Source of the DNA: Gammaproteobacteria bacterium
GTDB lineage: Bacteria; Pseudomonadota; Gammaproteobacteria; Eutrophobiales; Eutrophobiaceae
Direction of reading: 5' to 3'
NCBI GenBank assembly: GCA_965221695.1
Contig: OZ244905.1
Location: 2,701,384 to 2,765,383, forward strand
DNA length: 64,000 bases
A program made the translations under genes and the position numbers. The notes beneath the pieces are model-generated. The model was given only the letters and a program-made list of their open reading frames with translations. It was not told the DNA's origin and searched no databases. The first letter of the stretch is position 1. Every line of letters begins with the position of its first letter. Of the stretch, positions 2,925 through 60,747 are shown one piece after another.

Positions 2925-3113
2925 AAGGAACCTCTGGATTAAGTCAGAGTTTCCCTAAGGAAACTCTGAACAAGTCCATCCTGGACTTGTCAGAGTACGG
3001 AAAGCAAAAATGCGATTTTTGTTTTCCTCACAAAATCAATGTCTTACAGTCATTGATATTGACGATACATCCTTGTATCGTAGGAACCTCTGACTTAATC
3101 AGAGGTTCCCTAA
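2925..3113 (+). repeat. MITE-B element, full copy (five-hairpin structured repeat)
   Basis: Terminal hairpins aggaacctctg(g)attaagtcagag and aggaacctctgacttaatcagaggttcc are present. Internal hairpins are ctctgaacaagtccatcctggacttgtcagag, ggaaagcaaaaatgcgatttttgttttcc, atcaatg..cattgat and acgatacatccttgtatcgt. The copy is near-identical to those at 22.5 kb (inverted) and 60.7 kb. Confidence 0.9.
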
Positions 3114-3211: not shown

Positions 3212-3817
3212 ATGACCGACAAGACAATCAGCGCTGACGAGCACAAGCAGAAGATGCAGGAGCAGCAACGCCAGGTGCGCGCCAAGATCGCGGCGGCGAA
3301 AACAAGGCGCGGGATCATCCTCTACCTGTACGGCAACGGCAAGGGAAAAAGCAGTTCGGCATTCGGCACCCTGGCCAGAAGCATTGGTCACGGTAAAAAA
3401 GGCGCGGTGGTGCAATTCATCAAGGGTAAATGGAAGACCGGGGAGCAAGCGATTTTCAAACAACTGGGCGTGAAACACCTGGTTATGGCAACTGGGTTTA
3501 CCTGGGACACCCAGGACCGGGAGAAGGACATCGCCGCCGCGGCAGCGGTCTGGAACGACGCGCTCCCGTTGTTCCGGGACCCTGCTTACGATATTGTGGT
3601 CCTCGATGAAATAACCTACATGTTCAAGTATGGCTACCTGCCGGCAGACGCCGTCTGCGAAGTCCTGCTGGCCCGGCCGGAGAAACAGAACGTGATTATC
3701 ACCGGCAGGGACCCGATCCCGGAATTGCTGGAGATTGCCGATACCATCAGCGAGGTCAAGGAAATCCGCCATGCCTTCCACCAGGGCATCAAGGCACAGA
3801 AAGGCATAGAGTATTAA
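3212..3817 (+). CDS. cobO: Cob(I)yrinic acid a,c-diamide adenosyltransferase
   Basis: P-loop-like GNGKGKSSSAFG and the QFIKGKW motif are typical of CobO/BtuR. The gene sits in a cob/btuB context. Confidence 0.85.
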   Translation: MTDKTISADEHKQKMQEQQRQVRAKIAAAKTRRGIILYLYGNGKGKSSSAFGTLARSIGHGKKGAVVQFIKGKWKTGEQAIFKQLGVKHLVMATGFTWDTQDREKDIAAAAAVWNDALPLFRDPAYDIVVLDEITYMFKYGYLPADAVCEVLLARPEKQNVIITGRDPIPELLEIADTISEVKEIRHAFHQGIKAQKGIEY

Positions 3818-3977
3818 AGAAGCTCTGAACAAGTCCATCCTGGACTTGCCAGAGCACGCACAACAAAAATGCGATTTTGTTGTGCTCACATATTCAATAA
3901 CTTGCAGTCATTGAATATGGCGATACATCCTTGAATCGCAAGAAGCTCTGAACAAGTCCATCCTGGACTTGACAGAG
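3817..3977 (+). repeat. MITE-B element, variant copy
   Basis: The copy starts at the cobO stop codon. It has the same internal hairpins with sequence variants. Both ends carry aagaagctctgaacaagtccatcctggacttg(c/a)cagag as a direct repeat. Confidence 0.85.
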
Positions 3978-11724: not shown

Positions 11725-11975
11725 AACAGCAGGAGTCCAGTCATATTACAGTGTAGTCCGGAGAGCTTACCCATATAGAACGTGGGGCAATCCTTTGTTT
11801 CACCGGTTGAAATAGTTGCCACAGACCAGGGCATTCTCCCGTACCACTCCCGCGAAAGCGGGAGTCCAGTAAAATACTATGTCGCCTGAAAGGCGACCCT
11901 TTGTTCCACCGGCCGGAAAAGCTGTATTCCCACCCAAGCGGGAATCCAGTAAAATAACCGTCTCAAAGAGACACC
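11725..11975 (-). repeat. Cluster of two to three REP-A copies (inverted orientation, partly degenerate)
   Basis: gtaccactcccgcgaaagcgggagtccagt...gtcgcctgaaaggcgac...attcccacccaagcgggaatccagt, plus degenerate flanking copies. Confidence 0.75.
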
Positions 11976-11985
11976 TTATTCACCC

Positions 11986-12789
11986 ATGATCAAAACAGCA
12001 ATATGCGGCGCCGCGGGCAGGATGGGAAAAACCATCCTGGAAGTTGTCAGCGAGAGCGAAGGGATCACGGCGGGCGCGGCCATTGAACAACGCGGCTCAC
12101 CGGCGCTAGGCCGGGACGCGGGCGAACAGGCCGGCATCGGCAATCTCGGAGTCAGCGTGACCGATGATATCGAAACCGTCCTGGATGACTTCGATGTGCT
12201 GATAGACTTCACCCGGGCCGATGCGGTGCTCAAAAACCTGGAAGTTTGCCGTGCAGGCAATAAAAAAGTGGTGATCGGTACCACCGGCCTGACCGGTGAG
12301 CAACAACAGACACTGCACAGGGCCAGCGAAGATATCGCGATCGTATTTGCCCCCAACATGAGCGTCGGTGTTAACCTGTGTTTCAAACTGACGGAACTGG
12401 CCGCAAGCATAGTCGGTGACAGCACGGATATCGAGATTATAGAAGCTCACCATAACCGCAAAATCGATGCGCCGTCAGGCACTGCGGTGCGCCTGGGAGA
12501 AATCATCGCGGCGCAATTGGGGCGCGACCTGGCAGAATGCGCGGTTTACGGGCGAGAGGGTATTACCGGCCCGCGCGATCGCAAGACCATCGGCTTTGAG
12601 ACCATACGCGCCGGTGATATTGTGGGTGAGCACACCGTTATGTTCGCCGGCGAGGGCGAACGGGTGGAGATCAAGCATGTCGCCGGCAACCGCAAGACAT
12701 TTGCCGGCGGTGCAGTGCGCGCCGCGCAATGGGTCATGAGCAAGAAAACCGGCCTGTACAGTATGCAGGACGTGCTGGGGTTGCATTGA
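11986..12789 (+). CDS. dapB: 4-hydroxy-tetrahydrodipicolinate reductase
   Basis: N-terminal GAAGRMG Rossmann motif and the EAHHNRKIDAPSGTA active-site block. Confidence 0.95.
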   Translation: MIKTAICGAAGRMGKTILEVVSESEGITAGAAIEQRGSPALGRDAGEQAGIGNLGVSVTDDIETVLDDFDVLIDFTRADAVLKNLEVCRAGNKKVVIGTTGLTGEQQQTLHRASEDIAIVFAPNMSVGVNLCFKLTELAASIVGDSTDIEIIEAHHNRKIDAPSGTAVRLGEIIAAQLGRDLAECAVYGREGITGPRDRKTIGFETIRAGDIVGEHTVMFAGEGERVEIKHVAGNRKTFAGGAVRAAQWVMSKKTGLYSMQDVLGLH

Positions 12790-12791
12790 TT

Positions 12792-13301
12792 ATGCCGATA
12801 GAAGCGCCATTCCGGGCAAACAGGCAACTGATCGTCCCCGAATGGATCGACTACAACGGCCACATGAACGTGACCTACTATGTCCTCGTGTTTGACCGCG
12901 CCACCGACGATTTTTTCGACTTCATGGGGTTGACCGCCGAATACAGGGCCGCCAGCAATCTCTCGGCCTTCACGGCGGAAATGCATGTGAATTATCTCCG
13001 TGAGGTGAAGGAAGGTGACGAAGTATCCGTAACCACCCAATTGCTGGGTTACGATGCCAAACGCTTCCATTATTTTCACCACATGTACCACGCCGAACAA
13101 GGCTACCTGGCCGCCACCAGTGAACTGCTGTGCCTGTTCATGGACATGAACCAGCGACGGGTAACGCAAATTCCACCCCCGATCCAGGACAGACTGGCCG
13201 AAATCAAGCAAAGCCACGCCGCTTTGCCGTTGCCCGAACAGGTCGGCAGCGTGATGCGAGTGAAACCTGCCGCACCAGCCGATAACGCAGATAATCGATA
13301 A
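12792..13301 (+). CDS. Hotdog-fold acyl-CoA thioesterase family protein
   Basis: EWIDYNGHMNVTYY is characteristic of 4HBT-type thioesterases. The ATG lies 3 nt after the dapB stop. The 3' end is duplicated at 15560-15648. Confidence 0.7.
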   Translation: MPIEAPFRANRQLIVPEWIDYNGHMNVTYYVLVFDRATDDFFDFMGLTAEYRAASNLSAFTAEMHVNYLREVKEGDEVSVTTQLLGYDAKRFHYFHHMYHAEQGYLAATSELLCLFMDMNQRRVTQIPPPIQDRLAEIKQSHAALPLPEQVGSVMRVKPAAPADNADNR

Positions 13302-13406
13302 GAAACCTGTGAGCTACCTTCAACAGAGGGTATGCACAAGGAATGCGCCATCAACTGTGAGCATATCCAGACGGTTTCCAAAGGTGGATTAAGCGGATGG
13401 TGAATT
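13224..13406 (+). repeat. Duplicated segments A1 (13224-13312) and B1 (13318-13406)
   Basis: A1 is about 94% identical by eye to 15560-15648. B1 is about 90% identical by eye to 15337-15425. A and B are contiguous here but permuted in the second locus. Confidence 0.85.
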
Positions 13407-13483
13407 CTGCATATATACTGGATTTTTGCGACCTAAGCGCTTAGACTATGATTATACCCCCTGCGGCTTCGACCGCAGGCCGC

Positions 13484-13513
13484 GGGGCCTCTACGGAGGC
13501 CCCTGCTTTTTTT
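13484..13513 (+). terminator. Rho-independent terminator
   Basis: Stem ggggcctc-tacg-gaggcccc followed by tgcttttttt. It is preceded by a second hairpin, ctgcgg-cttcga-ccgcag, at 13461-13478. Confidence 0.7.
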
Positions 13514-13521
13514 GGTGAGAA

Positions 13522-14145
13522 ATGCGCACATACATCTATGTCGATGGTTTTAACCTCTACTATGGCGCGCTGAAAGACACGGCCTGGAAGTGGCTGGATC
13601 TGACCGCTCTATTCGAGAAAGTCCTCCAACCCAAACACGACATCCTGGCCATAAAGTACTTCACGGCTCACGTTTCAAGCACGCCTGCGGACCCGTTGAA
13701 ACCACAACGGCAAGAGGCCTATCTGCGCGCACTTCGGCATTTCCGACCTGAAGTCGACGTGTATTTCGGGCATTTTCTGAGTCATAAAGTCAGGGCGCCG
13801 CTTGCACATCCTGTGGGAAAACAGCGTTCTGCCAAAGTAATCCGAACCGAGGAGAAAGGTTCGGATGTTAACCTTGCCGTACACTTGCTAAATGATAGCT
13901 GGTTGAATGTCTATGATTGTGCAGTTGTCGTTAGCAATGATAGCGATATCGCCGAGGCAATGCGCCTTGTGAGGGAGCATCAAGGCAAGAGGATTGGATT
14001 GGTGACACCGGGAACTGGCCGCCCGTCCAGCCAACTCATGTTACACGCGGATTTTGCGAGACACATCCGACCGAATGCTTTGAGACAATCACAACTTCCG
14101 GACCAAATTCCCAACACCAACATCAGAAAGCCAGCGCGCTGGTAG
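13522..14145 (+). CDS. NYN-domain (LabA/PIN-like) putative ribonuclease
   Basis: N-terminus RTYIYVDGFNLYYG, then EEKGSDVNLAVHLLNDSW and VVSNDSDI, matching NYN-domain acidic motifs. Confidence 0.7.
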   Translation: MRTYIYVDGFNLYYGALKDTAWKWLDLTALFEKVLQPKHDILAIKYFTAHVSSTPADPLKPQRQEAYLRALRHFRPEVDVYFGHFLSHKVRAPLAHPVGKQRSAKVIRTEEKGSDVNLAVHLLNDSWLNVYDCAVVVSNDSDIAEAMRLVREHQGKRIGLVTPGTGRPSSQLMLHADFARHIRPNALRQSQLPDQIPNTNIRKPARW

Positions 14146-14189
14146 GACTATGACATAAGATTCGAGGAACAACCGTTTCAATCAAGAAA

Positions 14190-14330
14190 ATGTCCTCTAA
14201 AGGCCAGATTGTCATCCCTGAGCAAATACGCACGCAAATAGACCTAGAAGCGGGTTTCCAGTTACAGTACGTAGCCTCACCAATGCGCGTTTGCGGGAGA
14301 TTCTATTACAATCACAGTATCAAAGGTTAA
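14190..14330 (+). CDS. Short AbrB/MazE/SpoVT-like antitoxin ORF, probably truncated (46 codons)
   Basis: My own translation is MSSKGQIVIPEQIRTQIDLEAGFQL..., which matches the swapped-hairpin KGQ(I/V)xIPxxIR motif. It is too short for a full domain and has no adjacent toxin. It is absent from the track because it is under 60 aa. Confidence 0.35.
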   Translation: MSSKGQIVIPEQIRTQIDLEAGFQLQYVASPMRVCGRFYYNHSIKG

Positions 14331-14515
14331 ATCCTTAAAGCGGGATTCGCTTACGCCTCCAGATTCTAAGGTTTCCCAAAATTAAGGCTGGATATGGGTG
14401 CCCCAGGACGCTCGTGCTCAGGATACCATGTCATTGAGAAGCACATAACGCTGCAGGGATCGCGTCGAATGTGTATTCCCAAGGGTATTCGAAGGTGTGT
14501 CCTCTGATCACGGCA

Positions 14516-14971
14516 TCAGGTCAATTCTGCGTGGATACTACGCGCGTCCAGAAGTGGCATATCCAACACAGTTTGAACAAAGCCCGGGCCTTTCTCGTGC
14601 TGTTTAAGGTATCGGCGCAAAATGCCAAAGAATGGCGTCTCAAAGGTTTTCTCGACCGTAGTGATATACTCCCGCGCGTCAGGCTTTGCGCGGCTATCGC
14701 CCCTGAAGTTGCCAAACAGCGCTGCGCTGAGGTTGGGATATGCTTTATTGAAATTTGTCACGGCGCCGGGAAATCCCCTGCCAAGGGAGAGTTTTGGTTT
14801 GTTTATCTGCGCCGCATAGTTGTTGACTTGCTTTTCAACTGTATAGGGCGAAATCTTAACTTCGTCTGCCAGAGTGAGAATACGCTCAATTCTCGCTGCG
14901 TTGGTTGATTGCCGGTTGAGAATGGCATAAGCCCGTTTTGCCAATTCATGCGGATACAACAGGTTCGTCAA
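14516..14971 (-). CDS. Hypothetical protein (151 aa), convergent with the NYN gene
   Basis: This is the only long ORF in the segment and I recognise no family. A helix-turn-helix near STNAARIERILTLADEVKISPYTV is possible. The overlapping + strand ORFs look spurious. Confidence 0.45.
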   Translation of the reverse strand: MTNLLYPHELAKRAYAILNRQSTNAARIERILTLADEVKISPYTVEKQVNNYAAQINKPKLSLGRGFPGAVTNFNKAYPNLSAALFGNFRGDSRAKPDAREYITTVEKTFETPFFGILRRYLKQHEKGPGFVQTVLDMPLLDARSIHAELT

Positions 14972-15073
14972 GTTACCAGTTTACTTGCACCTGACACCAA
15001 TGCGTATAAATTTGACCTAAACTGAATATACTCTTACAGTCTGACCAGACAGATCAGAATTGGGTAGACCGCA

Positions 15074-15379
15074 TTGATAAGAGAAACAAAATGGCAATTA
15101 CAGGAAGCCAAGGCGGACCTGAGTGAGCTGGTAAAGTCCGCTCAGAATAACGGACCGCAACAAATCACTGTACACGGCAAGCCTGCCGCTGTTGTCCTTT
15201 CCTGTTACGACTATACCCGGCTTGCCAGGAGTAAGCCGTCATTCGTCGGTCTGATGCGGCAATCTCCGCTCATAGGCGTAGACCTGCAACTTGAGCGGGA
15301 CCAATCGCTGGCACGCGAACAAACCCTGTGTACTATCTTCAACAGAGGGTATGCCGAAGGAATGCGCCATCAACTCTGA
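15074..15379 (+). CDS. Phd/YefM-type (VapB-like) antitoxin lacking a cognate toxin gene
   Basis: WQLQEAKADLSELVKSAQNNGPQQITVHGKPAAVVLS is a typical Phd/YefM N-terminus. The last ~14 codons lie in repeat B2. No PIN toxin follows. Confidence 0.7.
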   Translation: MIRETKWQLQEAKADLSELVKSAQNNGPQQITVHGKPAAVVLSCYDYTRLARSKPSFVGLMRQSPLIGVDLQLERDQSLAREQTLCTIFNRGYAEGMRHQL

Positions 15380-15425
15380 TCACATCCAGACGGTTTCCAA
15401 AGGTAGATTAATCGGATGGTAAATT
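15337..15425 (+). repeat. Duplicated segment B2
   Basis: Matches 13318-13406. Both copies keep the frame ..FNRGYA(E/Q)GMRHQL-stop. Confidence 0.85.
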
Positions 15426-15559
15426 ATTATCACGCTATACACCTGGAAGAAAAACACCGCAAAGGTTACGAATTACAGCCTGTGGGTAATAACGAGTTCG
15501 CTATGTGGGAAGCAGAACAGGATTGGGGAGACAGTTTAACAAGGGAAAGCCAAGCAGAG

Positions 15560-15648
15560 TTGCCGTTGCCCAAACAAGTCGGCAGCGTGATGCAAGTTAA
15601 ACCTGCCGCACCAGCCGATAACGCAGATAATCGATAAGAAACCTGTGA
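15560..15648 (+). repeat. Duplicated segment A2 (second copy of the thioesterase 3' end)
   Basis: Encodes LPLPKQVGSVMQVKPAAPADNADNR-stop, compared with LPLPEQVGSVMRVKPAAPADNADNR-stop at 13224-13312. Confidence 0.85.
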
Positions 15649-15723
15649 TGATTAAGTATTTCTGAGATTCCAACTGTCACTTTTCACTTGTTCGGAATAT
15701 CCGGAGATTGCTATACTTTCTAC

Positions 15724-15963
15724 ATGTCTTATCATGAACGAATTACGGTGGAACCAGGCAAACGGGGAGGCAAACCCTGTATTCGAAGGTTGCGAATTAC
15801 TGTCAATGACGTACTGGAATATCTTGCTTCCGGAATGACAGAGCAAGAAATCCTAGCTGATTTTCCTGATTTAGAACCAGAAGATATCAAAGCATGTTTG
15901 GCATTTGCTGCCGAGCGAAAACGGAAATTCGTATTGGCGCAAAAAAGTGAAACTGCTTGTTGA
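15724..15963 (+). CDS. DUF433-family antitoxin-like protein
   Basis: ITVEPGKRGGKPCIRRLRITVNDVLEYLASGMTEQEILADFPDLEPEDIKACL is the classic DUF433 pattern. Confidence 0.75.
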   Translation: MSYHERITVEPGKRGGKPCIRRLRITVNDVLEYLASGMTEQEILADFPDLEPEDIKACLAFAAERKRKFVLAQKSETAC

Positions 15964-16279
15964 CGAAAACCTGTCACCCCGTCTAACTGGCTTTCTTTCG
16001 ACCAACTTTCCCGGTTCCGCACATGTGCGCGATGTTGGACTGGCCAGAGCCGATGATGAAACTATCTGGGCCTATGCGAAAAACCATGGATTTGTAATTG
16101 TTTCCAAGGGTTCGGATTTTTTCCTCAAAGCAGTCAAGTCAATGCCTCATCCCAAACTGATTTGGATTCAACGTGGTAACTGTAGTACGAGGGAAGTAAG
16201 GACTCTGTTTGAAGATTACCTGCCTGTTCTTCAAAGCTTTGAAAAAAGTACGGATGTATCCTTTCTTAAAATGGTATGA
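15947..16279 (+). CDS. DUF5615 / PIN-like (Mut7-C type) putative toxin, partner of DUF433
   Basis: VKLLVDENLSPRL...DDETIWAYAKNHGFVIVSKGSDF. A GTG start overlaps the DUF433 stop, which is the usual paired arrangement. Confidence 0.65.
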   Translation: MKLLVDENLSPRLTGFLSTNFPGSAHVRDVGLARADDETIWAYAKNHGFVIVSKGSDFFLKAVKSMPHPKLIWIQRGNCSTREVRTLFEDYLPVLQSFEKSTDVSFLKMV

Positions 16280-16281
16280 CT

Positions 16282-16626
16282 TCAACGGTTGATATCATGC
16301 CTGGCTTCAAACTCAGCTGTGAACTCATCAAGTGGCCGGCCTTGTTCAGACAGGGCATGTCTGATAATCCGCACGCTCTCGGCATAGTTTGCCAATACCG
16401 CTATTTTTTCGTAGGTTTCAGAATCCTGGACTACCACAGCAGCGTTGCCATTGACCGTTAGAAGCTCTGGACGTTTGCTTTTGTTCGGTCGTGTAATATG
16501 CGTCGCCGGTTTCCGGCTGAAGTCAGTGACCGATTGTTGTTCAAACGTGAGCGGAGATTTCGTGTAGGCTTCTGCCACTGGAGATCCTCGGTACGCAGGC
16601 AAAAAAAAGCCGCCAAGGTTGCGCAT
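16282..16626 (-). CDS. Phd/YefM-family antitoxin, orphan
   Basis: The central block is PELLTVNGNAAVVVQDSETYEKI. No toxin ORF lies downstream on the minus strand, because the DUF5615 gene abuts it. The exact start is uncertain. Confidence 0.55.
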   Translation of the reverse strand: MRNLGGFFLPAYRGSPVAEAYTKSPLTFEQQSVTDFSRKPATHITRPNKSKRPELLTVNGNAAVVVQDSETYEKIAVLANYAESVRIIRHALSEQGRPLDEFTAEFEARHDINR

Positions 16627-17142
16627 TGTTAAGAGGCGTGACGGCTATGTTACTCATATTATAGTTCCTGCTGGAAACAGATTCAAGAGAGAGATAGTGT
16701 TTTCCATATTAGCGGGAGATTCTGTTAGCAACAAATTGATTTGTCCGCTTTTGTAACAAATCAATTCCTCTTTTATCTTTACACTGACACCGTCAAGATG
16801 TTAGCGGGAGCTTCTTGTAAATCCCTGATATGGTTGTTAAAGTATTTTGCATGGAAAAATTGATCGAAAGAATAAAACTAGGTCTTGAGAAAGGGCATTA
16901 TTCACGCGAAGAACAAGTATGGGGTAGTGGCGCCGAAGTGGAATTTGAAATACCTACACGCACTTAGAGTTCAACAGCCAGTTGACACAGTCGGCTAACC
17001 TGACAAAAAAGCAAACCAACCGTTATCGGTTGAAAAACTAATCTCTGGTTTAGACAGTTGTGAAACCACAATGGAGGGATCGTTGTCCGAGACCGAATGA
17101 ATCATAACGTGGAATACAAGCCGTTTGACAGCGCGTAAAGAA

Positions 17143-17781
17143 ATGACTCCCGGACAACAATTTGTCGAAGCATTGAGCGAACTCGATTTTGAGAATACGT
17201 TTAACCCTTATTCGGATCAATGTTTTGTTCACGACCTGGATGGTGCGCCAGTCTTTCGGTCACACGCATTGCAGGCTATGCTGGATGCGGCAACTGAGCA
17301 GGAAATTGATTCCCTCTGGATTGGGAGAGACCTTGGCTATCGTGGAGGCAGGCGGACTGGATTGGCCCTGACAGATGACGCCCATATTCAGGCCCATGCC
17401 AAACGCTGGAAGCTGTCGATTCAACGGCCAACAAAAGGCGCTCCGGTTACTGAACAAACAGCAGCGGTAACCTGGCGCGTGCTTGCGCAAATTGAATTAT
17501 CCGTTTTCCTGTGGAATGTCTTCCCACTGCATCCTCATGAACCCGATAATCCTTTCAGTAATCGCTCGCATAACGCGCGCGAACGCAGGGCCGGGGAAGA
17601 ATTTCTCTCTGAGCTTATCCTGCTTCTGAAGCCTCGTCGGCTTGTTGCAATCGGCAATGACGCGGCGCAGACGGTAAACCGTCTGAGACATGGGCATGAA
17701 GCCATCAAAATACGGCATCCTGGCCATGGTGGACAAACCCGGTTCCTTGACCAAGTCAGCGCGCTGTACAACCTGCACTGA
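17143..17781 (+). CDS. Uracil-DNA glycosylase superfamily protein, divergent
   Basis: GRDLGYRGGRRTGLALTDD occupies the position of the GEAPG motif-A block. Also present are VTEQTAAVTW, LWNVFPLHPH and a C-terminal IRHPGHGG (motif B-like). Confidence 0.5.
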   Translation: MTPGQQFVEALSELDFENTFNPYSDQCFVHDLDGAPVFRSHALQAMLDAATEQEIDSLWIGRDLGYRGGRRTGLALTDDAHIQAHAKRWKLSIQRPTKGAPVTEQTAAVTWRVLAQIELSVFLWNVFPLHPHEPDNPFSNRSHNARERRAGEEFLSELILLLKPRRLVAIGNDAAQTVNRLRHGHEAIKIRHPGHGGQTRFLDQVSALYNLH

Positions 17782-17828
17782 GATTTTGCTGATATATGCT
17801 GTGTAAATTTTACTAACTGTCCTGCACC

Positions 17829-17980
17829 CCGAACATTCCGGTACGTACAGGAATTCAGTGAAACAAAGGGTCGCCCTCCGGGCGACACAGAATTTGACTG
17901 GACTCCCGCTTTCGCGGGAGTGGTACGGGGGAATACCTTGTTCTGTGCCAACAGTTACATGTAATCGGGGTGTGCAGAGA
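17829..17980 (+). repeat. REP-A copy plus shared extension
   Basis: ...cagtgaaacaaagggtcgccctccgggcgacacagaatttgactggactcccgctttcgcgggagtggtacggggg, followed by gaataccttg..caacagttacatgtaatcgggg. Confidence 0.85.
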
Positions 17981-18124
17981 GCTGATCATAAGGGTTTAGA
18001 GTTTGCAAACAACGTCTCGGATGAGATGACGTAATCAGGTCATGCCTGCTGGCGGTTTCTCCACATAACCGGCAGGGTTGCGACGGCGGGCCAGTAGTTT
18101 GTCAATTTCCCAGCGGGCGGCTGG

Positions 18125-21100
18125 TTAGACATCGGTGAGGCAGGTAGTCACTCCATTCAATTGTTTTGCGACCGGCAAGCCGTTTTTGAACAATATCCTG
18201 TTGGTATGCAAGGCCGGGATGCGGTCGCCGGGCAATATCACGCCTACCAGGTTCAGCGGATCGGTGGCGGAGATGACGACTGGAGGCAGCTCCTGCGTGG
18301 CGTTTTTCTGTTTCCTCAACAAGGCAATCGCCTCCGGTCGGGCAAATTGTTCGCCGGAGCAGCCTTCGACAAAATAACCGCCACGGATCTCGCCTCGCGC
18401 CTCCATGCGCCGGCACATATACAGCAGCTCTCTCCACGGCGGTAAGTCGGGTTCGCGTTCCAGTACCTTGCGGAACAGCACACCATAACGCTTCAGCAGG
18501 GTATCGACAACCGCGCTCAGCGTGTTTTCGTCCGTGCCCGGCCAGGCGCGCTGTTCCGGGGTTTCGGGGTCTTCCGTTGAACTGACAATGGCCGACCAGC
18601 GCCCTGCGGCATCGACGCTGTTCATGCTCGACGCTCGCCGGCGTCGCCTCCCATGGCCGTAGCCGGGGCGCTTGCTCTCCGGTGTGATCAGTGCCCGGAG
18701 CCCTGCGTAGCTGTCTGAGGTGACGGCGCCGCCAGCGGCCAGTTCAGCCAGCGCCGTTTCCACCTGGGTGCGCAGTAAACCGGTCTGTTGCGCCAGGTCC
18801 ATGAAAAATGATGCGCCCTGGCGCCGCAGGGTGTCCAGGGTTTTTGCTGCTGCGGACGATAACTTCCTGCCCTGGATCGCATCCGGCAGCAGAAGTTTCT
18901 GCCACAGGTCAAGGCGTTCACGGTCCAGCAGGGTGATGGGCGTGTTCCTCAGCAATACCGCTTTGCCCGCAGACATTTCATCCGCTGCAGCCCTGTGCCT
19001 GGCAGAACGCAGGCGCGACCAGACGATGCGGCCACTACTGCACAAGCGGTCCAGGGCCGCGCTGGAGTAGTCGTTCAGGCGGGCAGGCAGGATATCCTTT
19101 TCCCACGCAGCCGCGGCAATGGCGTAACCCTCCAGTTTTTCCAGCGCCGCCAGCAGCGCGGCGTCACCCTCGGGTCGTATTTCACCCATACCGTGCCACG
19201 CAAACAGGAAACGCATATAGCCGGCGGCTGTTACCGGTTTGATTTCCTGCCGTAACGATTGAATGGTATAGCGGTGCATCCTGGCGAGCAGGCCGCGCTC
19301 GCACCACTCTGTCTCCACGGCGTCAGGGCTGTACCGGCCCTGCATCGCATAGCCCTCGTTCTGCAATGCCAGCAGGGACGCGTTAACCTCGGTGGCGCTT
19401 GCGTCAAACAGTTCAGCCAACTCGGCTTCGGTCACGGGTCCGCAGCATTCGAGCCGGGCGCGCACAAGTTCGATCAGCGCGGACTCTCTGGCAGGTCTTC
19501 CTGTACCAAGGGCTGCCTCTGGCGGCATCTCGGATAACTGGATTTTTGCTTCCGCCGTGATGGCGGCAGAGGAGCGCCGGGATGGTGGGGAGGCAGCAGT
19601 ATCGATAGAAGAAGCAGGCGCTGGGGGCAAGCCGGCAGCCGCAGTGGTTGGCCCGCCGGCATATACTGCCTGAGCCTGGGGAAGCCGTTCGGCGCAAACC
19701 CATAGGGTCTGTTTGCCGGCGCGCAGCACGGTTGCGCGTTTCTCCTCCATAAGCCGAGGCAACCAGGGGCGACCGTCTGCCAGCGCCGGGTTATCGCCGC
19801 TGCCTTCGCGTGCACTCATCACGCCGGTAAGCATCAGCGCATCATGCAGTTCATCTGCGTCACGGAATGCCGGCCAGGCTTCACTGCGTACCTGGGCGAT
19901 GGCTTCCGGACTCAAGCGGGCAAGGTTTGCGGCGTCGGCCGGGTCCAGGAAGCGCCTGGCAATGACCGCGTTGGTGCGGCGTTCTTCCGCCGGCGCATCA
20001 TCCAGGAATGCATACGGCCGGGCGTTCAGGATTTCCTGTGCCAGCGGAGAGGGCCCGCCCAGGTCGCGGCAATGGAAGCGGATCCGGCCGTTCTCGTATG
20101 CCCGAAGAATTTCTTCCAGTCCGGCAATGTCCATCAGGTCGTTCAGGCAGTCGTTGACGGTCTGTTCTACCAGCGGATGCCGTGGTATTTCCCTTTCTCC
20201 GATGAGATTGTCCTGGCAGGCCAGTTGGTCGGGGAAGACCACCGCCATCAGGTCCTCGGCATCGCTGCGCTGGAACTGTGCGGGCACTTTCTGCCCGCCG
20301 CTGTTGCGCCTGACGGCCAGGGCCGTGGTGGCATTCCAGCGCCAGTGTGTGGGGAACATCGGCGTCGCCAGCAGCGCCTGGGTGACCGCGTCCCTGACGC
20401 TCGCGGAATTAAGGTAGCGGGTCACATCCTCCAGGGGAAAGCTGTGGATCGCGCCCAGGGATATGACAATGCTGTCGTCCAGGGCTGCGGCCTGCAACTC
20501 AAAATTGAACTGCCGGCAGAAGCGCTTGCGCAGGCCCAGGCCCCAGGCGCGGTTGATGCGGGAGCCGTAAGGGCTGTGCAGCACCAGGTGCTGGTCTCCT
20601 GCCTCGTCAAAAAAGCGCTCGAACACGACATCCTGCCGGGTCGGGACGCGTCCCAGGGCGGCGCGCGCGCCGGCCAGGTGATCGGTCAACTGGCGTGCAG
20701 CCGCCTCGTTCAGATTTAATTCGCCAACCAGCCAGTGATATGCGGTATCCCCGCCCTGCGCCAGTTTTTCATCCATGACGCTGCGCAGGCGTGAGACCGC
20801 ACGACTCAGTTCATCGGACCGGCCCGGCGCCTCGCCGAACCAGAACGGAATGTTCGGAGGCTGGCCTTGTGCGTCCGCAACCCGCACTTTGCTCTGTTCG
20901 ACCTTGAGGATGCGATACGAGGTATTGCCCAGTTGGAAGATGTCGCCAGGCAGGCTCTCGAATGCAAAATCTTCGTTCAATGTCCCGATAAAATGGCCCT
21001 CCGGTTCCAACACCACATCGTAATCGAACTGGTCCGGTATCACCCCGCCGTTGGTAACGGCAGTCAGCCTCGCGCTCTTCCTGGGCCGGATGCGCTTGTT

Positions 21101-22538: not shown

Positions 22539-22698
22539 TTAAGGAACCTCTGATTAAGTCAGAGGTTCCTACGATACAAGGATGTATCGTCAATATCAAT
22601 GACTGTAAGGCATTGATATTGTGAGGAAAACAAAAATCGCATTTTTGTTTTCCGTACTCTGACAAGTCCTGGATGGACTTGTTCAGAGTTTTCTTAAG
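22539..22698 (-). repeat. MITE-B element, full copy, inverted orientation
   Basis: Reverse complement of the 60745-60900 copy with few differences. Confidence 0.9.
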
Positions 22699-24039: not shown

Positions 24040-24161
24040 TAGCACAGGCCAAGGTATTGCCCCGTACCACTCCCGCAACAGCGGGAGTCCAGTCAAATAA
24101 GTGTCGCCCGCAGGGCGACTCATCTGTTTACTGGATTCCCGTTTTCACGGGAATGGTACGG
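24040..24161 (-). repeat. REP-A copy (inverted) with part of the extension
   Basis: ccaaggtattgccccgtaccactcccgcaacagcgggagtccagt...gtcgcccgcagggcgac...attcccgttttcacgggaatggtacgg. Confidence 0.85.
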
Positions 24162-36166: not shown

Positions 36167-36260
36167 TTCCGCAGCTTTGCCAACCGTTCTATGCGGTTGC
36201 CCTGCGCAGCGATGCAGGGATAATGTGCTGTACCGCATAATCAGCTACAATAACCAGCCC

Positions 36261-36347
36261 GGAGAGGTGCCAGAGTGGTTGAATGGGGCAGACTCGAAAT
36301 CTGTTGTACGCGTCAGCGTACCGTGGGTTCGAATCCCACCCTCTCCG
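36261..36347 (+). tRNA. tRNA-Ser (anticodon CGA)
   Basis: ggagaggtgccagagtggttgaatggg...gactCGAaatc..., a long variable arm (gtacgcgtcagcgtac), T arm gtgggttcgaatcccac, and an acceptor pairing GGAGAGG/CCTCTCC with discriminator G. No CCA is encoded. Confidence 0.9.
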
Positions 36348-36701
36348 TAACATTCATGCCACAGGCGCATCTGGCGCCTGTGGCATGAATGTTGATGCAA
36401 TGGGGTTCGAACCCACGGTAATTAAATACGGGTTCGACAAATTCGCTGGGAGCGAATTTGAACAGCGTAGCTGGCCCCGGAGGGGCAAACTACATGGATG
36501 TAGTTTGTAATCCCACCCTCTCCGTAACATTCATGGCACAGGCGCTTCTGTCGCCTGTGCCATGAATGTTGATGCAATGGGGTTCGAACCCACGGTAATT
36601 AAATACGGGTTCGACAAATTCGCTGGGAGCGAATTTGAACAGCGTAGCTGGCCCCGGAGGGGCAAACTACATGGATGTAGTTTGTAATCCCACCCTCTCC
36701 G
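36332..36701 (+). repeat. Two tandem 177-bp units, each bounded by the 16-nt tRNA-Ser 3' end (three copies: 36332, 36509, 36686)
   Basis: aatcccaccctctccg occurs three times with an exact 177-bp period. Each unit starts with a 20-bp-stem hairpin (36349-36393; 36526-36570). Confidence 0.9.
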
Positions 36702-36705: not shown

Positions 36706-37896
36706 CTAATAGTCCGGTAAAGTCCGGAGTCTTCCAAGCGCTTCAATGAAATGTGCTAGTGACAGGATGGTTGTGTCCTGGCTGCCGGGGAATGTATCTT
36801 CGCCAGTGTAAACAACAAATTTCTGTTTTACCTTTAAGTCTTCACAGGCCATGTGAAAGCCTTTTTTCAAGGTTGGAGTTCGGCTTGCTTTGATCTCAAC
36901 GGCCCAGTATTCATCAAGACCAAACTCAATTACCAAATCAATTTCTGCCCCAGCAGATGTGCGATAGAAAAACGGATGAGCGCTTGAAGGTAAGGCGTTA
37001 ATAATGGTCTCAATGACAAACCCCTCCCAGCTTTTTCCGAATATAGGATGCCCCAACAAAGCTTCATAATTCGGAATTTGCAGCAAGGCATGCACAAGAC
37101 CGCTATCGCGTACATAGGTACGTGGTGATTTCACCAGCCGTTTTTTGACGTTCCCATGCCAAGGCTCTAGCCTGCGAACCAATAACAAATCAACCATGAG
37201 GTCCAGATATCGACTAACGGTGACACTCTCTACGCCAAGAGAGCTTGCGAGTTTTGACGCGTTCAGTAGTTCACCTTGTGTATGGGCAAGCATGGTCCAA
37301 AAGCGCATCAAGGTCGTTGCTGGAATTCTTGGTCCTAGCTGAGGGATGTCTCGTTCCAGATAGGTGCGAATAAAATTCTGCCGCCACTGGTGACTGGCCG
37401 CATCATCTTCAGCGGCATAGCTGTCGGGAAACCCACCACGTATCCAGAGCTTTTGTAAGGGCTCTCCGGATGTTTCTTCAATTTCAAAAAGGTTTAAGCC
37501 AGTCAGTTCAGAGTAATGAATGCGGCCAGCAAGGCTCTCAGAGCTTTGTTTTAGCAACTCATTGGTTGCCGATCCTAAAACAAGAAAGCGTCCGTTTCCG
37601 CGCCCCTCACGACGTCTGGCATCAATGATTCCGCGCAGTGACATAAACAAATCAGGGTAGCGTTGGACCTCATCGAGAATGACCAGCTTATCTGCATGTA
37701 GTTCTAGATAGTGGGCAGGGTCTTTGAGCTTTTGGAAATCCTCTGGGTTCTCGAGATCCAAATAAACAGATGGTTGCCCTTTGGCGATCTCATGGGCAAG
37801 CGTTGTCTTGCCAATCTGGCGCGGGCCAAGAATGGCAACAGCCGGATTTTGACTGAGACTTTTGATGATTTTCTGTGTAAGCTCTCTTTCATACAT
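36706..37896 (-). CDS. AAA-family ATPase with C-terminal DUF4143-type domain
   Basis: MYERELTQKI...VAILGPRQIGKTTLAHEIA (Walker A), VILDEVQ (Walker B), about 396 aa. The track ORF extends to 37971. Confidence 0.75.
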   Translation of the reverse strand: MYERELTQKIIKSLSQNPAVAILGPRQIGKTTLAHEIAKGQPSVYLDLENPEDFQKLKDPAHYLELHADKLVILDEVQRYPDLFMSLRGIIDARRREGRGNGRFLVLGSATNELLKQSSESLAGRIHYSELTGLNLFEIEETSGEPLQKLWIRGGFPDSYAAEDDAASHQWRQNFIRTYLERDIPQLGPRIPATTLMRFWTMLAHTQGELLNASKLASSLGVESVTVSRYLDLMVDLLLVRRLEPWHGNVKKRLVKSPRTYVRDSGLVHALLQIPNYEALLGHPIFGKSWEGFVIETIINALPSSAHPFFYRTSAGAEIDLVIEFGLDEYWAVEIKASRTPTLKKGFHMACEDLKVKQKFVVYTGEDTFPGSQDTTILSLAHFIEALGRLRTLPDY

Positions 37897-38276
37897 GCTA
37901 GCAATACTAACACAAAATATTAAATATGCAAGGTAAATGTTTTTGTGGTGATCTGTTTCCAATGAAGGCAAAGCGGGATTAGAACCCGCGATACGGTACC
38001 GTGTTCACAACAAAAACCGGCGCTTGGCGAGGAAGGTGTACAGGCGGGTGGTGAACAAGTCGCCGGTACGGCGAACTTTGCGAGGCACAAACCTCTTATC
38101 ACCCAATGTAATTCGGTTTGTATAGTCCGCAACATCCGTAATTGGTTTTGAAAATCCTGTGTCTATGGACAACCCCCCCATACTTGATTAGCATAAGTCA
38201 TAAGGAGGACCTATCGTGAACGTTGATTTCGTGACAAAGCGCCAGTCTGACAATCTCATGCAAATGCCGACCATCC

Positions 38277-50520: not shown

Positions 50521-50563
50521 AGCGTCGGGTTTCCTTTAATTCAGGTAGGGACGGTTTTACGCG

Positions 50564-50601
50564 CTCTGACAAGTCCAGGATGGACGTGTTCAGAGTTTCC
50601 C
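50564..50601 (-). repeat. MITE-B fragment (first hairpin only)
   Basis: ctctgacaagtccaggatggacgtgttcagagtttccc. Confidence 0.6.
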
Positions 50602-59433: not shown

Positions 59434-60747
59434 GTGGCGTCAAGACAAGGCTCAGTCCGCAGTCCGGTGAATAGTCTGAATCCCTCCCTGCGGGAATACT
59501 GGCCCCGGCGTTACACGCTGACCGGCCTGGCGGTTATCGCGATGTTCATCTGCTACATGGACCGGGTGAACATTTCCATTGCCATCATACCGATGGCTGA
59601 CGACATGGGTTGGCAGCCGGAACAACAGGGCATGGTATTGTCGTCTTTTTTTCTCGGTTACCTGTTAACCCAGGTCCTCGGTGGCCGCCTGGCGGATCGC
59701 CATGGCGGCAAGCTTGTGCTGGGAGTTGCGGTACTGGTCTGGTCGTTGTTCACGTTTGTCACACCCGTAGCTGCAATGGCCGGTTTCGGCGCACTGCTCC
59801 TGGCGCGTATCGGTATGGGCGCAGGCGAAGGCGTGGCGTTGCCGGCCGTTTACAGTCTCTACGGTCGCTGGTTGCCGCGTCATGAGTTTTCCCGCGCCAT
59901 TGGCGCTACCTTTTCTGCGATGACCCTGGGGATTGTTTTCGGCATGGCAGCCACGCCCTGGATCATCGTCAATTTCGGTTGGCACTGGGCATTTTATTCA
60001 TTCGGTCTCGCCGGTTTTGCCTGGTTCATCTTCTGGCACAAAAGCGCTGCGTCGCATCCTGACCTGCATTCGGGTATCAGCGAGCAAGAGCGCGCGCTGA
60101 TACGCAGGGATGCGGCGCCGGTCACGGCAACACAGGCGCCGCCCTGGGGCCAGTTGTTAACCACACCGGCCGTCTGGGCTATCATCGTGGCCCATTTCTG
60201 TTCCAACTGGGGTGTGTACGTGCTGCTGGCGTGGATGCCCACCTATATCAACAAGGGGTTGCAGGTTGATTTCAATGCGGTGGGCTTGTATGCAATGATC
60301 CCCTACATCGCCGCCTTCCTGTTCTTTAACATAGCCGGCGCGCTCGCAGACAGACTGGCCATGCGTGGTTGGGAGACAATAAAAATCCGCAAGTTGATGC
60401 AAGTCATCGGTTTTGGCGGACCGGCGCTGATCCTGATGTTCGTCGGTAATGTCGATAATGCAGAAGCCGCGATTGCATTGATGACACTGGCCAATATTTT
60501 TATAGCCTTCAATGCGGGCGCTTTCATCGTCAACCACCTGGACATAGCCCCGAAATACGCCGGCGTTTTGATGGGCCTGTCGAACACGGCAGGCACAATA
60601 CCGGGTATCATAGGCGTTTATGTCAGCGGAATGATACTGGGGCTGACTGGTTCGTGGACGCTGGTGTTTCAGCTCGCAGCGCTGGTATACCTGCTGGGGC
60701 TGGTATTCTACCTGGCGTTCGCATCGGGCAAACGCCTGTTTGATTAG
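59434..60747 (+). CDS. MFS transporter (anion:cation symporter-like)
   Basis: About 12 predicted TM helices and GGRLADRHGGK (MFS loop 2-3 motif). The GTG start is uncertain. Confidence 0.8.
   Translation: MASRQGSVRSPVNSLNPSLREYWPRRYTLTGLAVIAMFICYMDRVNISIAIIPMADDMGWQPEQQGMVLSSFFLGYLLTQVLGGRLADRHGGKLVLGVAVLVWSLFTFVTPVAAMAGFGALLLARIGMGAGEGVALPAVYSLYGRWLPRHEFSRAIGATFSAMTLGIVFGMAATPWIIVNFGWHWAFYSFGLAGFAWFIFWHKSAASHPDLHSGISEQERALIRRDAAPVTATQAPPWGQLLTTPAVWAIIVAHFCSNWGVYVLLAWMPTYINKGLQVDFNAVGLYAMIPYIAAFLFFNIAGALADRLAMRGWETIKIRKLMQVIGFGGPALILMFVGNVDNAEAAIALMTLANIFIAFNAGAFIVNHLDIAPKYAGVLMGLSNTAGTIPGIIGVYVSGMILGLTGSWTLVFQLAALVYLLGLVFYLAFASGKRLFD

What the first reader, a model, noticed from the sequence alone, without database searches (positions are those of the whole stretch)
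13224..15648. Thioesterase gene 3' end duplicated 2.3 kb downstream, with a second repeat in permuted order, flanking an AT-richer insert
Segment A is 89 bp and encodes LPLP(E/K)QVGSVM(R/Q)VKPAAPADNADNR-stop plus 9 nt. It occurs at 13224-13312 as the real end of the thioesterase gene and again at 15560-15648.

Segment B is 89 bp. It follows A after 5 bp in the first locus (13318-13406). In the second locus it precedes A by 134 bp (15337-15425). Both B copies keep an open frame ending FNRGYA(E/Q)GMRHQL-stop.

A gene 3' end repeated on both sides of foreign-looking DNA is the signature of an element that integrated into the gene while supplying a replacement end. The permuted B copy indicates an additional rearrangement or a second event. 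No recombinase is present.
Basis: seen in the sequence. Interest (0 to 1): 0.55.

Follow-up and report, generated by a model that had tools for sequence, protein, structure and literature searches.

The report
Gene-fragment scars in a toxin-antitoxin hotspot
The two repeats are real, but they are dead gene fragments (a thioesterase end and a piece of a PemK/MazF toxin gene) left as nested duplications in a fast-changing, recombinase-free toxin-antitoxin islet between two core genes; this is an ordinary kind of genome scar, not a new mobile element.

Summary
Repeat A is 13210-13312 / 15546-15648 (103 nt, 92%). Repeat B is 13303-13406 / 15322-15425 (104 nt, 88%). Neither is expected by chance.

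A1 is the genuine 3' end of a 4HBT_2 thioesterase, and A2 is a decaying copy. B is an internal fragment of a PemK/MazF toxin gene, not the end of an FNRGYA... ORF. The 120 nt between B2 and A2 is the 3' piece of the cognate RHH antitoxin. The 73-aa ORF across B2-x-A2 is a chimera and is frameshifted in a sister strain.

The "permuted order" is simply two nested direct-repeat pairs: A1 B1 [cargo] B2 x A2.

The whole 13.3-18.1 kb stretch is a variable islet between convergent thioesterase and lhr genes:
- It is empty in at least four relatives (a fifth holds only one small ORF).
- Other relatives carry other toxin-antitoxin pairs or Zorya there.
- A sister strain lacks exactly 13313-15648 at this junction.

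No recombinase occurs in any occupied relative. Duplication length varies (103, about 125, at least 207 bp) or is absent. Foreign DNA continues past A2, and the copies show gene conversion.

Best reading: scars of homologous or illegitimate recombination at an integrase-free hotspot. Low novelty.

The parts
12792..13301 (+). Intact thioesterase gene (169 aa, 4HBT_2 family). It is the core gene on the left edge of the hotspot.
   Evidence: Pfam PF13279, E=1e-36. There are 1562 homologues at E<=1e-20, and the C-terminal LPLPEQVGSVM(K/R)VK peptide is conserved in nearly all of the 120 listed.
13210..13312 (+). A1: the outer direct repeat, left copy. It comprises the real thioesterase 3' end (aa 140-169), the stop codon and the 11-nt motif O (GAAACCTGTGA).
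13303..13406 (+). B1: the inner direct repeat, left copy. It is an internal fragment of a PemK/MazF toxin gene (coding remnant about 13314-13400, ...STEGMHKECAINCEHIQTVSKGGL...). It joins A1 through the shared 10-nt motif O.
   Evidence: tblastn with the PemK of L089 gives E=1e-5 for this copy. Frames.
13484..13513 (+). Strong intrinsic-terminator-like hairpin (8 bp stem with 7 GC pairs, then a T-run) lying between B1 and the NYN gene. It sits inside segment 'C' (13407-13580).
   Evidence: Diverged second copies of C (82-84% identity) lie elsewhere in the islets of L003 and L006.
13522..14145 (+). NYN-domain protein gene (207 aa), cargo of the inner insertion.
   Evidence: Pfam PF01936, E=3e-9.
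14190..14330 (+). AbrB/MazE-type antitoxin fragment. Only about 21 residues match the family.
   Evidence: Pfam PF04014 E=0.003, and TIGR01439 E=2e-5.
14516..14971 (-). C-terminal remnant (151 aa) of a 380-aa XRE-HTH plus ImmA/IrrE-like (HELGH) gene. The window has lost 718 bp of it at a 3-nt microhomology (GTT).
   Evidence: The full-length gene is present in L003 and L006. Junction sequences; colinearity.
15074..15379 (+). Orphan Phd/YefM antitoxin ORF with no toxin partner. Its homologue in L006 stops at a TGA inside motif O' (equivalent to window position about 15331). In the window it reads on into B2.
   Evidence: Pfam PF02604 E=4e-13. L006 ORF 13005-13262. Frames.
15322..15425 (+). B2: the inner direct repeat, right copy. 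It is the same PemK/MazF internal fragment, with the same left and right breakpoints as B1.
   Evidence: BLASTP to L089 PemK aa 53-78: 62% identity, E=9e-12. tblastn E=7e-9.
15426..15545 (+). x: 3' fragment of the RHH (CopG-type) antitoxin that partners this PemK family.
   Evidence: 85% identity over 27 aa to P0124 (E=3e-14). BLASTP gives 68% over 34 aa, E=3e-17. P0124 lies directly upstream of a PemK gene in L089 and matches RHH_1.
15546..15648 (+). A2: the outer direct repeat, right copy. It is a thioesterase 3'-end pseudogene fragment plus motif O.
   Evidence: It has substitutions at conserved E and R/K positions, and it is frameshifted in L006 (P0123).
15416..15637 (+). 'ORF73': a chimeric reading frame stitched from the end of B2, the RHH fragment and A2. 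It is not a real gene.
   Evidence: Only 4 proteins match in 5.8 billion: itself, two sister strains (one frameshifted to 61 aa), and the RHH antitoxin P0124. No Pfam or NCBIfam hit.
15650..15671 (+). n: GATTAAGTATTTCTGAGATTCC, the sequence that follows A-O wherever B is absent. This holds for window A2 and for L003 A1 and A2. It marks the pre-insertion junction.
15688..16279 (+). DUF433 / DUF5615 (PIN-like) gene pair, apparently intact. In L003 its first 400 bp follow A1 directly.
   Evidence: Pfam PF04255 E=3e-25 and PF18480 E=6e-29. Colinearity with L003.
16282..18124 (.). The rest of the variable islet. It holds a Phd-like ORF on the minus strand (16282-16626) with an abiF RNA motif at 16608-16645(-), a UDG-superfamily ORF (17125-17781), and a roughly 95-150-bp dispersed repeat (17850-18000). 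It ends at the stop codon of lhr (18125).
   Evidence: In the empty-site relatives the thioesterase stop is 80-230 bp from lhr.

Best explanation
The two repeat pairs are non-functional scars: nested segmental duplications inside a small, rapidly turning-over accessory islet. The islet (13.3-18.1 kb) sits between the convergent core genes for a thioesterase and the Lhr helicase.

The outer pair (A-O) is the thioesterase 3' end plus 11 nt. The inner pair (O-B) is an internal fragment of a dead pemK/mazF toxin gene. Between B2 and A2 lies a fragment of that toxin's RHH antitoxin.

Reading left to right the structure is: thioesterase-A1 | B1 | terminator, NYN, AbrB fragment, truncated HTH-ImmA gene, orphan Phd | B2 | RHH fragment | A2 | n, DUF433/DUF5615 ... 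lhr.

Shown:
- Relative to a sister strain, 13313-15648 is a clean 2,336-bp insertion whose right end repeats the 103 bp that precede it.
- The spot is empty in several relatives and carries unrelated toxin-antitoxin or defence cargo in others.
- No recombinase accompanies any version.
- The copies exchange sequence by gene conversion.

Inferred mechanism:
- Cargo enters and is reshuffled by the host's own recombination. This is homologous recombination anchored in the conserved flanks or in fragments already resident (A-O-n, B, the HTH and Phd genes).
- The other end is joined illegitimately at microhomology, that is, homology-facilitated illegitimate recombination or Campbell-type insertion of a circle that carries a short homologous segment.
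- The A1|B1 junction sits on a 9-10-nt microhomology (AAACC(C)TGTG) shared with the sequence preceding B2. The 718-bp deletion in the HTH gene sits on a 3-nt microhomology.
- Toxin-antitoxin genes then erode, toxin first, leaving orphan antitoxins and fragments.
- The thioesterase survives because its end was duplicated, not replaced by an element-specific att arm.
For: Repeats and chance test.

A1 is the native gene end and A2 is decayed.

B is a PemK fragment and x is an RHH antitoxin fragment from the same kind of operon.

ORF73 is frameshifted in L006.

Empty sites: L005, L087, L170, L007. L086 is nearly empty.

Other cargo at the same spot:
- Zorya in L088.
- MazE-Fic in L173.
- A PIN-containing islet in L171.
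- BrnT plus a 74-aa thioesterase fragment in L004.
- ParE/Phd and a SACS/NOV_C giant gene in L003 and L006.

L003 is colinear with window 12701-13312 + 15649-16047.

No recombinase in any locus.

Variable or absent duplication.

Microhomology junctions.

Gene conversion:
- Both A copies carry CACCAG in the window but CATCTG in L003.
- L006 B2 carries B1-type patches.
- 50 nt are identical at the 3' end of window A1 and A2.

Literature on the known pattern:
- Toxin-antitoxin systems cluster in small high-turnover spots and are often pseudogenised, toxin first (PMC13617665).
- Core defence hotspots have been described in Pseudomonas aeruginosa and defence islands mapped across the Escherichia coli pan-genome (PMC10250203, PMC10121019; titles and abstract starts only).
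Against: The order of events cannot be reconstructed. L003 shares the block HTH-Phd-B-x-A-O-n but has no B1 and places it downstream of the DUF433 fragment, so at least three further events separate the strains.

It is not settled whether A2 arose by in-situ duplication or arrived as a passenger on donor DNA.

A 9-10-nt microhomology is long for a chance junction, and the same motif O ends both A copies. A short specific site therefore cannot be formally excluded.

Only about 13 related loci were examined, and all are metagenome assemblies.

No experimental evidence for any recombination pathway exists for this uncultured organism.
Confidence: 0.68

Rival explanations
1. This is a decayed site-specific integrative element (genomic islet, IME or satellite). 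Its att site would be the thioesterase 3' end plus motif O. It would have brought a replacement gene end, and its integrase has been lost or acts in trans.
For: Direct repeats of a gene's 3' end flank AT-richer cargo, and an 'empty' allele exists.

L003 has A-O-n repeated around different cargo.

L004 shows an analogous arrangement. There the intact gene has a different tail (VKPYSTVDDAD*) from the displaced fragment (VKR*), as expected if an incoming arm replaced the end.

Motif O is exact at both A ends.
Against: No tyrosine, serine or DDE recombinase was seen in the window islet or in the other six occupied relatives.

The duplicated length differs between events (103, about 125, at least 207 bp). 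Three occupied sites have no duplication at all.

Left breakpoints scatter over about 50 bp of the gene tail.

Accessory DNA continues 2.5 kb beyond A2.

The alternative tail also occurs at empty sites (L005, L087), so it is not element-borne.

The inner repeat B is a pseudogene fragment, which no integrase model predicts.
Confidence: 0.15
2. This is purely local duplication, with no foreign-DNA step for the repeats. Replication slippage, unequal sister-chromatid exchange or template switching copied about 100-bp patches (A-O, O-B) within an already existing islet. B1 would be a templated patch copied from the B2 locus 2 kb away.
For: Both junctions of B1 coincide with those of B2, so B was copied as an already-truncated unit.

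There is microhomology at A1|B1.

Gene conversion between copies shows that they interact.
Against: The copies differ by 8-12%, against 1.4-2.7% for the flanking core DNA of the sister strains, so the copying is not recent.

This model does not explain why cargo differs completely between strains and relatives at the same spot.

It overlaps with the best explanation rather than excluding it.
Confidence: 0.12
3. The repeated segments are functional. ORF73 would be a real small protein reusing the thioesterase tail, or B would be a regulatory RNA or promoter module placed in front of cassettes.
For: ORF73 was called as a gene in the assemblies where it is intact (the window's own locus and L003). 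B ends with a Shine-Dalgarno-like AAGGTGGA followed by an ATG.
Against: ORF73 is frameshifted in L006. It has no homologues beyond sister strains and the RHH antitoxin it was cut from.

There is no Rfam hit in B. RNA folding of B on either strand is not better than shuffles (z = -1.5 to +0.15).

No promoter-like site was found in B.
Confidence: 0.03
4. The structure is an assembly artefact of a metagenome-assembled genome.
For: The source is a MAG, and repeats can be mis-joined.
Against: The same A1-B1...B2-x-A2 arrangement occurs in an independent ENA contig at 99.6% identity and in a second MAG at 97-98.6% identity with its own substitutions.
Confidence: 0.02

Closest known systems
Integrase-free variable 'spots' or core hotspots between conserved genes that accumulate toxin-antitoxin and anti-phage systems. 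Examples are the toxin-antitoxin spots of Photorhabdus (PMC13617665), the core defence hotspots of Pseudomonas aeruginosa (PMC10250203) and the E. coli defence-island map (PMC10121019).
   Same: The flanking core genes are conserved (dapB-thioesterase and lhr) in 12 relatives. Empty alleles exist. Cargo is unrelated from genome to genome (Zorya, MazE-Fic, PIN, BrnT, ParE/Phd, DUF433/DUF5615). Pseudogenisation is frequent, with orphan antitoxins. No mobile-element genes are present.
   Different: This spot has not been described, and the host is an uncultured gammaproteobacterium. Here the debris includes duplicated pieces of the flanking core gene itself, and nested ~100-bp repeats that undergo gene conversion.
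Genomic islands, ICEs and prophages that integrate into the 3' end of a tRNA or protein gene and restore it with an element-borne copy (attL/attR direct repeats). This comparison rests on my own knowledge, for example ICESt1/St3 in fda and P4-type islands in tRNA genes.
   Same: A gene 3' end is repeated on both sides of accessory DNA and the gene is left intact. An allele lacking the segment exists.
   Different: There is no recombinase, no fixed crossover point and variable repeat length. The repeats do not bound the accessory region, and a second, nested repeat pair is made of a toxin pseudogene.
PemIK / MazEF-type type II toxin-antitoxin operons (RHH or AbrB antitoxin followed by a PemK/MazF endoribonuclease).
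   Same: B matches PemK residues 53-78, including the conserved ...C.IN.DHIQTVSKG.. block. x matches residues 39-72 of the RHH antitoxin encoded immediately upstream of that PemK in L089.
   Different: Only fragments remain. They are in the order toxin-piece then antitoxin-piece, the reverse of the operon. The toxin piece is present twice.
Homology-facilitated illegitimate recombination and Campbell-type insertion through short homology. The mechanism is known from natural transformation studies (own knowledge; the term appears in PMC6382021).
   Same: One junction lies in a homologous anchor and the other at 3-10-nt microhomology. Short segments next to the anchor are duplicated or deleted.
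   Different: This is inferred from junction anatomy only. No transformation or recombination data exist for this organism.

Membership tests
Site-specific integrative element (island / IME / prophage remnant) | Encodes, or lies next to, a tyrosine, serine or DDE recombinase. | tested here: not met
   Pfam and NCBIfam scans of all islet ORFs and precomputed Pfam for genes in 13 related loci. No integrase or transposase family was seen.
Site-specific integrative element (island / IME / prophage remnant) | Direct repeats (attL/attR) mark the two ends of the accessory DNA. | tested here: not met
   A1 and A2 bound only 13313-15648. The low-GC variable DNA continues to 18.1 kb, and the empty-site relatives lack all of it.
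Site-specific integrative element (island / IME / prophage remnant) | Independent insertions use the same crossover position and the same repeat. | tested here: not met
   The repeat is 103 bp (window), about 125 bp (L003) or at least 207 bp (L004), and there is none in L171, L173 or L088. Left breakpoints are scattered in the gene tail.
Integron cassette array (attC-bounded cassettes) | Imperfect inverted-repeat attC sites at cassette boundaries, and an intI gene or its remnant. | tested here: not met
   No inverted repeat was found in or around A or B. B does not fold better than shuffles on either strand. There is no integrase. A formal attC covariance model was not run.
PemK/MazF toxin (PF02452) | A full-length domain of about 100-110 aa in one open frame. 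| tested here: not met
   Only about 26-28 residues align, to PemK aa 53-78. Pfam does not score the fragment. It is a pseudogene fragment derived from the family, not a member gene.
RHH/CopG antitoxin of a PemK pair | An N-terminal ribbon-helix-helix DNA-binding domain. | tested here: not met
   x matches only aa 39-72 of P0124. The RHH part (aa 7-41 in P0124) is missing.
4HBT_2 thioesterase | A complete hot-dog domain with the conserved C-terminal LPLPEQVGSVM(K/R)VK. | tested here: met
   Met for 12792-13301. A2 covers only aa 138-169, carries non-conservative changes, and is a fragment.
Integrase-free variable hotspot between core genes | The same two conserved flanking genes across relatives, with both empty and occupied alleles. 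| tested here: met
   The order hrcA-grpE-dnaK-dnaJ-dapB-thioesterase ... lhr holds in L004(left side), L005, L007, L086, L087, L170, L171 and L173. The site is empty in L005, L087, L170 and L007.
Integrase-free variable hotspot between core genes | Unrelated cargo in different genomes, enriched in toxin-antitoxin or defence genes. | tested here: met
   Zorya (L088), MazE-Fic (L173), PIN and DUF genes (L171), BrnT (L004), ParE/Phd and SACS/NOV_C (L003, L006), and NYN, Phd and DUF433/DUF5615 (window).
Homology-facilitated illegitimate recombination / Campbell-type insertion | Dependence on RecA and on an anchor of homology, demonstrated by genetics. | not testable with these tools
   Only junction anatomy is available: microhomologies of 9-10 nt and 3 nt, and gene conversion between copies.

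The most novel reading that the evidence does not exclude
The ~100-bp repeats are not mere debris. They would act as portable 'homology handles'.

A cassette block that carries a copy of the core gene's end (A-O-n) could loop out by RecA recombination between the repeats. The window copies share 50 identical nt. The circle could then move as DNA and re-insert by a Campbell-type crossover into any relative that has the thioesterase end. The block HTH-Phd-B-x-A-O-n sits at two different positions in the window and in L003.

That would give a recombinase-free way for toxin-antitoxin cassettes to home to this hotspot.
Probability: 0.1. Interest if true: 0.45.

Novelty: new member of a known kind. 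Interest (0 to 1): 0.15.

Why it matters
The practical value is annotation hygiene. ORF73, the 151-aa ORF at 14516-14971 and the extended Phd ORF are pseudogene chimeras and should not be treated as genes. The A1/A2 repeat should not be annotated as att sites of a mobile element.

Biologically, this is one more example, from an uncultured gammaproteobacterial lineage, of a recombinase-free hotspot between core genes. Toxin-antitoxin and defence systems (including Zorya in a relative) are swapped there and then erode.

The nested duplications and within-genome gene conversion give a readable record of how host recombination, rather than an element-encoded enzyme, reshapes such spots. This supports existing models and does not change them.

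Tried and rejected
- **Structured RNA in B.** Rfam on 13000-18200 gave nothing in A, B or x, only an abiF motif elsewhere. RNA folds of B on both strands were no better than shuffles. Rejected.
- **Integron attC or Xer/dif-like site at O.** There are no inverted repeats. By eye I found no convincing match to RYYYAAC/GTTRRRY or to a dif-type 11-6-11 site. O occurs only at the two A ends. Rejected; a formal attC model was not run.
- **'n' and the end of B as native thioesterase downstream sequence.** This idea came from by-eye alignment with L004, L005 and L087 tails. I dropped it for B once B proved to be PemK coding sequence.
- **A PemK remnant in the 'empty' intergenic of L170.** A local alignment gave 17/21 matches (p about 0.005 by shuffling). 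It was not supported by BLAST or tblastn across 10 relatives. Treated as chance.
- **x as a diverged thioesterase body.** No DNA or protein similarity beyond aa 138. Rejected; x is the RHH fragment.
- **GTDB genome scan and JGI metagenome scan with the thioesterase**. These returned one same-species genome (L006) and otherwise relatives at 72% identity or less, so they were of little use for junction comparison. Close relatives came only from exact-protein look-ups in ENA assemblies (all 12 look-ups used).
- **A recombinase elsewhere in the window.** The ORF next to tRNA-Ser (36706-37971) is a DUF4143 AAA ATPase, not an integrase.
- **A full event-by-event history of window, L003 and L006.** Not achievable with three strains.

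Full report
**1. Observation**

The repeats are real.
- The repeat finder reports A at 13210-13312 / 15546-15648 (103 nt, 92%) and B at 13303-13406 / 15322-15425 (104 nt, 88%) (alignment).
- Cores of 18-23 nt from each occur exactly twice in the window, against 0.00-0.05 expected from shuffles.
- In locus 1, A and B are contiguous and share a 10-nt overlap, GAAACCTGTG (motif O). In locus 2, B2 lies 120 nt upstream of A2.
- The same arrangement is present in an independent ENA contig (99.6% identity) and in a second MAG of the same species (L006, 97-98.6% identity). It is therefore not an assembly artefact.

**2. What the pieces are**

*Repeat A.*
- The gene at 12792-13301 is a 4HBT_2 thioesterase. 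It lies in the conserved run hrcA-grpE-dnaK-dnaJ-dapB-thioesterase.
- Nearly all of the 120 listed homologues end in LPLPEQVGSVM(K/R)VK. Most stop at VKR*, and a subclade carries short extra tails (VKPYSSADDAD*; here VKPAAPADNADNR*).
- A1 is therefore the genuine gene end. A2 is a fragment covering aa 138-169, with changes at conserved residues.

*Repeat B.*
- B is not the end of an 'FNRGYA...' ORF. In another frame both copies read ...STEGM(H/P)KECAIN(C/S)(E/D)HIQTVSKG(G/R)L...
- This aligns with residues 53-78 of a PemK/MazF toxin (62% identity, E=9e-12; tblastn E=7e-9 for B2 and 1e-5 for B1).

*Segment x (the 120 nt between B2 and A2).*
- It encodes HLEEKHRKGYELQPVGNNEFAMWEAEQ, which is 85% identical to the C-terminal part of a 77-aa RHH antitoxin, P0124 (E=3e-14).
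- P0124 sits immediately upstream of that very PemK in locus L089.

*ORF73 (15416-15637).*
- It is a chimera of the end of B, the antitoxin fragment and the thioesterase fragment.
- It has no homologues other than two sister-strain copies and P0124. In L006 it is frameshifted to 61 aa.

*The Phd ORF upstream of B2.*
- In L006 it stops at a TGA inside O'. The window's read-through into B is therefore accidental.

*The rest of the A1-A2 interval.*
- It holds a terminator-like hairpin, a NYN gene and an AbrB/MazE fragment.
- It also holds the C-terminal 151 codons of a 380-aa HTH-ImmA-like gene. That gene is intact in L003 and L006 but has lost 718 bp here at a GTT microhomology.

**3. Geometry**

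The order A1 B1 ... B2 x A2 is not a permutation that needs a separate rearrangement. It is two nested pairs of direct repeats.
- The inner pair (O-B) brackets 13407-15321.
- The outer pair (A-O) brackets everything from B1 to x.
- Both copies of B have the same left and right breakpoints. B was therefore copied as an already truncated fragment.
- The A1|B1 join lies on the 9-10-nt motif AAACC(C)TGTG, which also precedes B2.

**4. Context in relatives**

The whole interval from the thioesterase stop to the lhr stop (13302-18124) is lower in GC (0.41-0.53 vs 0.55-0.65) and is variable.

| Allele | Loci |
|---|---|
| Empty: thioesterase abuts lhr | L005, L087, L170, L007 |
| Nearly empty | L086 |
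| ZorABCD | L088 |
| Single MazE-Fic pair | L173 |
| PIN-containing islet | L171 |
| BrnT plus other genes | L004 |
| ParE/Phd pairs and an 1,800-aa SACS/NOV_C gene | L003, L006 |

No integrase or transposase family appears in any of these loci or in the window islet.

Sister strain L003 (98% identical in the thioesterase) is colinear with window 12701-13312 followed directly by 15649-16047. At this junction it lacks exactly the 2,336 bp 13313-15648. Yet L003 carries the block HTH-Phd-B-x-A-O-n further downstream, inside the DUF5615 region, and has no B1. L006 matches the window through A1-B1-NYN but lacks DUF433/DUF5615. The three strains therefore differ by several events.

**5. Site-specific or not**

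The features that would define an integrative element were tested and not met.
- There is no recombinase.
- The repeats do not bound the accessory DNA.
- The duplicated length differs: 103 bp in the window, about 125 bp (A-O-n) in L003, and at least 207 bp in L004.
- L171, L173 and L088 have cargo with no duplication at all.
- In L004 the intact gene has the extended tail and the displaced fragment ends VKR*, which looks like end replacement. However, the same extended tail occurs at the empty sites of L005 and L087, so it is lineage sequence and not an element arm.
- Left breakpoints of the variable region scatter over the last ~50 bp of the gene.

**6. Evidence that host recombination acts on the repeats**
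- Within each genome the two A copies share strain-specific variants: CACCAG in both window copies and CATCTG in both L003 copies.
- L006 B2 carries B1-type patches.
- The last 50 nt of window A1 and A2 are identical, although the copies differ by 8% overall.
- This is the signature of gene conversion. By my own knowledge, an identical tract of that length is long enough for RecA-dependent recombination.

**7. Best explanation**

The repeats are scars of serial acquisition and reshuffling at an integrase-free toxin-antitoxin/defence hotspot. Host homologous recombination, anchored in the flanks or in resident fragments, is combined with illegitimate joining at microhomology. Erosion of the toxin-antitoxin genes then follows.

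The literature describes this pattern. Toxin-antitoxin systems cluster in small high-turnover spots and are frequently pseudogenised, with toxin loss first (PMC13617665). Core defence hotspots have been described in Pseudomonas aeruginosa and defence islands mapped across the E. coli pan-genome (PMC10250203, PMC10121019; only titles and abstract starts were seen).

Which steps are inferred:
- The recombination pathway itself.
- Whether A2 was duplicated in place or imported with donor DNA.
- The order of events.

**8. Verdict**

The novelty category is a new member of a known kind, and interest is low (0.15).

The most novel reading not excluded is that the repeats serve as homology handles for recombinase-free cassette homing (probability about 0.1).

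Noticed in passing
window 16608-16645 (-): An abiF RNA motif (Rfam RF03085, 40.2 bits against a gathering score of 37, E=6e-5). It lies at the 5' end of the Phd-like minus-strand ORF 16282-16626. A -10/-35-like site lies just upstream, at 16686-16658.
   Followed up: no
window 2955-3113, 3815-3951, 22539-22696 (-), 60745-60901; partial copy at 50556-50600: A dispersed ~155-bp repeat family. Three copies are 96% identical and a fourth is 83%. It is REP/MITE-like and its function is unknown.
   Followed up: partly
window 17850-18000, 11815-11909 (-), 392-473, 517-662, 24042-24139 (-): A second dispersed repeat of about 95-150 bp (78-89% identity). One copy lies between dnaJ and dapB. An inverted copy lies at the right edge of the islet next to lhr, so the pair brackets dapB-thioesterase-islet. 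It contains a terminator-like hairpin at 17886-17870.
   Followed up: partly
window 14965/14967; L006 12174-12892: A 718-bp deletion removes the N-terminal 60% of a 380-aa XRE-HTH + ImmA/IrrE-like (HELGH) gene, with a 3-nt microhomology (GTT) at the junction. The 151-aa ORF called here is the remnant.
   Followed up: yes
L004 8001-8504 and 9178-9402: An independent duplication of the thioesterase 3' part (aa 87-158, 91% identical to the resident gene, with the first 41 nt identical) flanks a BrnT toxin gene. The intact gene ends VKPYSTVDDAD* and the fragment ends VKR*.
   Followed up: partly
L088 10580-20495: A relative carries a Zorya system (ZorA-like, OmpA/ZorB, EH_Signature/ZorC, SNF2-Mrr/ZorD) at the same thioesterase-downstream spot.
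   Followed up: no
window 13260-13301 and homologues: The thioesterase C-terminal tail beyond ...VK is hypervariable among close relatives (VKR*, VKPYSSADDAD*, VKSYSS*, VKPAAPADNADNR*). It is built from short tandem motifs (CGCAGAT / GATAA repeats). The 8-mer GAAACCTG occurs both at the VKP codons and just after the stop.
   Followed up: partly
window 13407-13580; L003 4885-5040; L006 13757-13915: Segment C comprises a terminator hairpin plus the first 53 nt of the NYN gene. A diverged second copy (82-84% identity) lies at the far side of the islet in L003 and L006, next to the dispersed repeat. It is another gene-start fragment left behind by turnover.
   Followed up: partly
L087 8237-9984; L086 9294-9958; L004 7560-7922; L171 1813-2175: The dapB-thioesterase junction is a second, smaller variable point. 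Relatives carry 1-2 extra ORFs there with no Pfam hit (432+150 aa, 88+71 aa, 120 aa), which are absent from the window.
   Followed up: no
window 36260-36348 and 36706-37971 (-): tRNA-Ser(CGA) is followed by a DUF4143/AAA_14 ATPase gene, not an integrase. This was checked only to exclude a nearby recombinase.
   Followed up: partly
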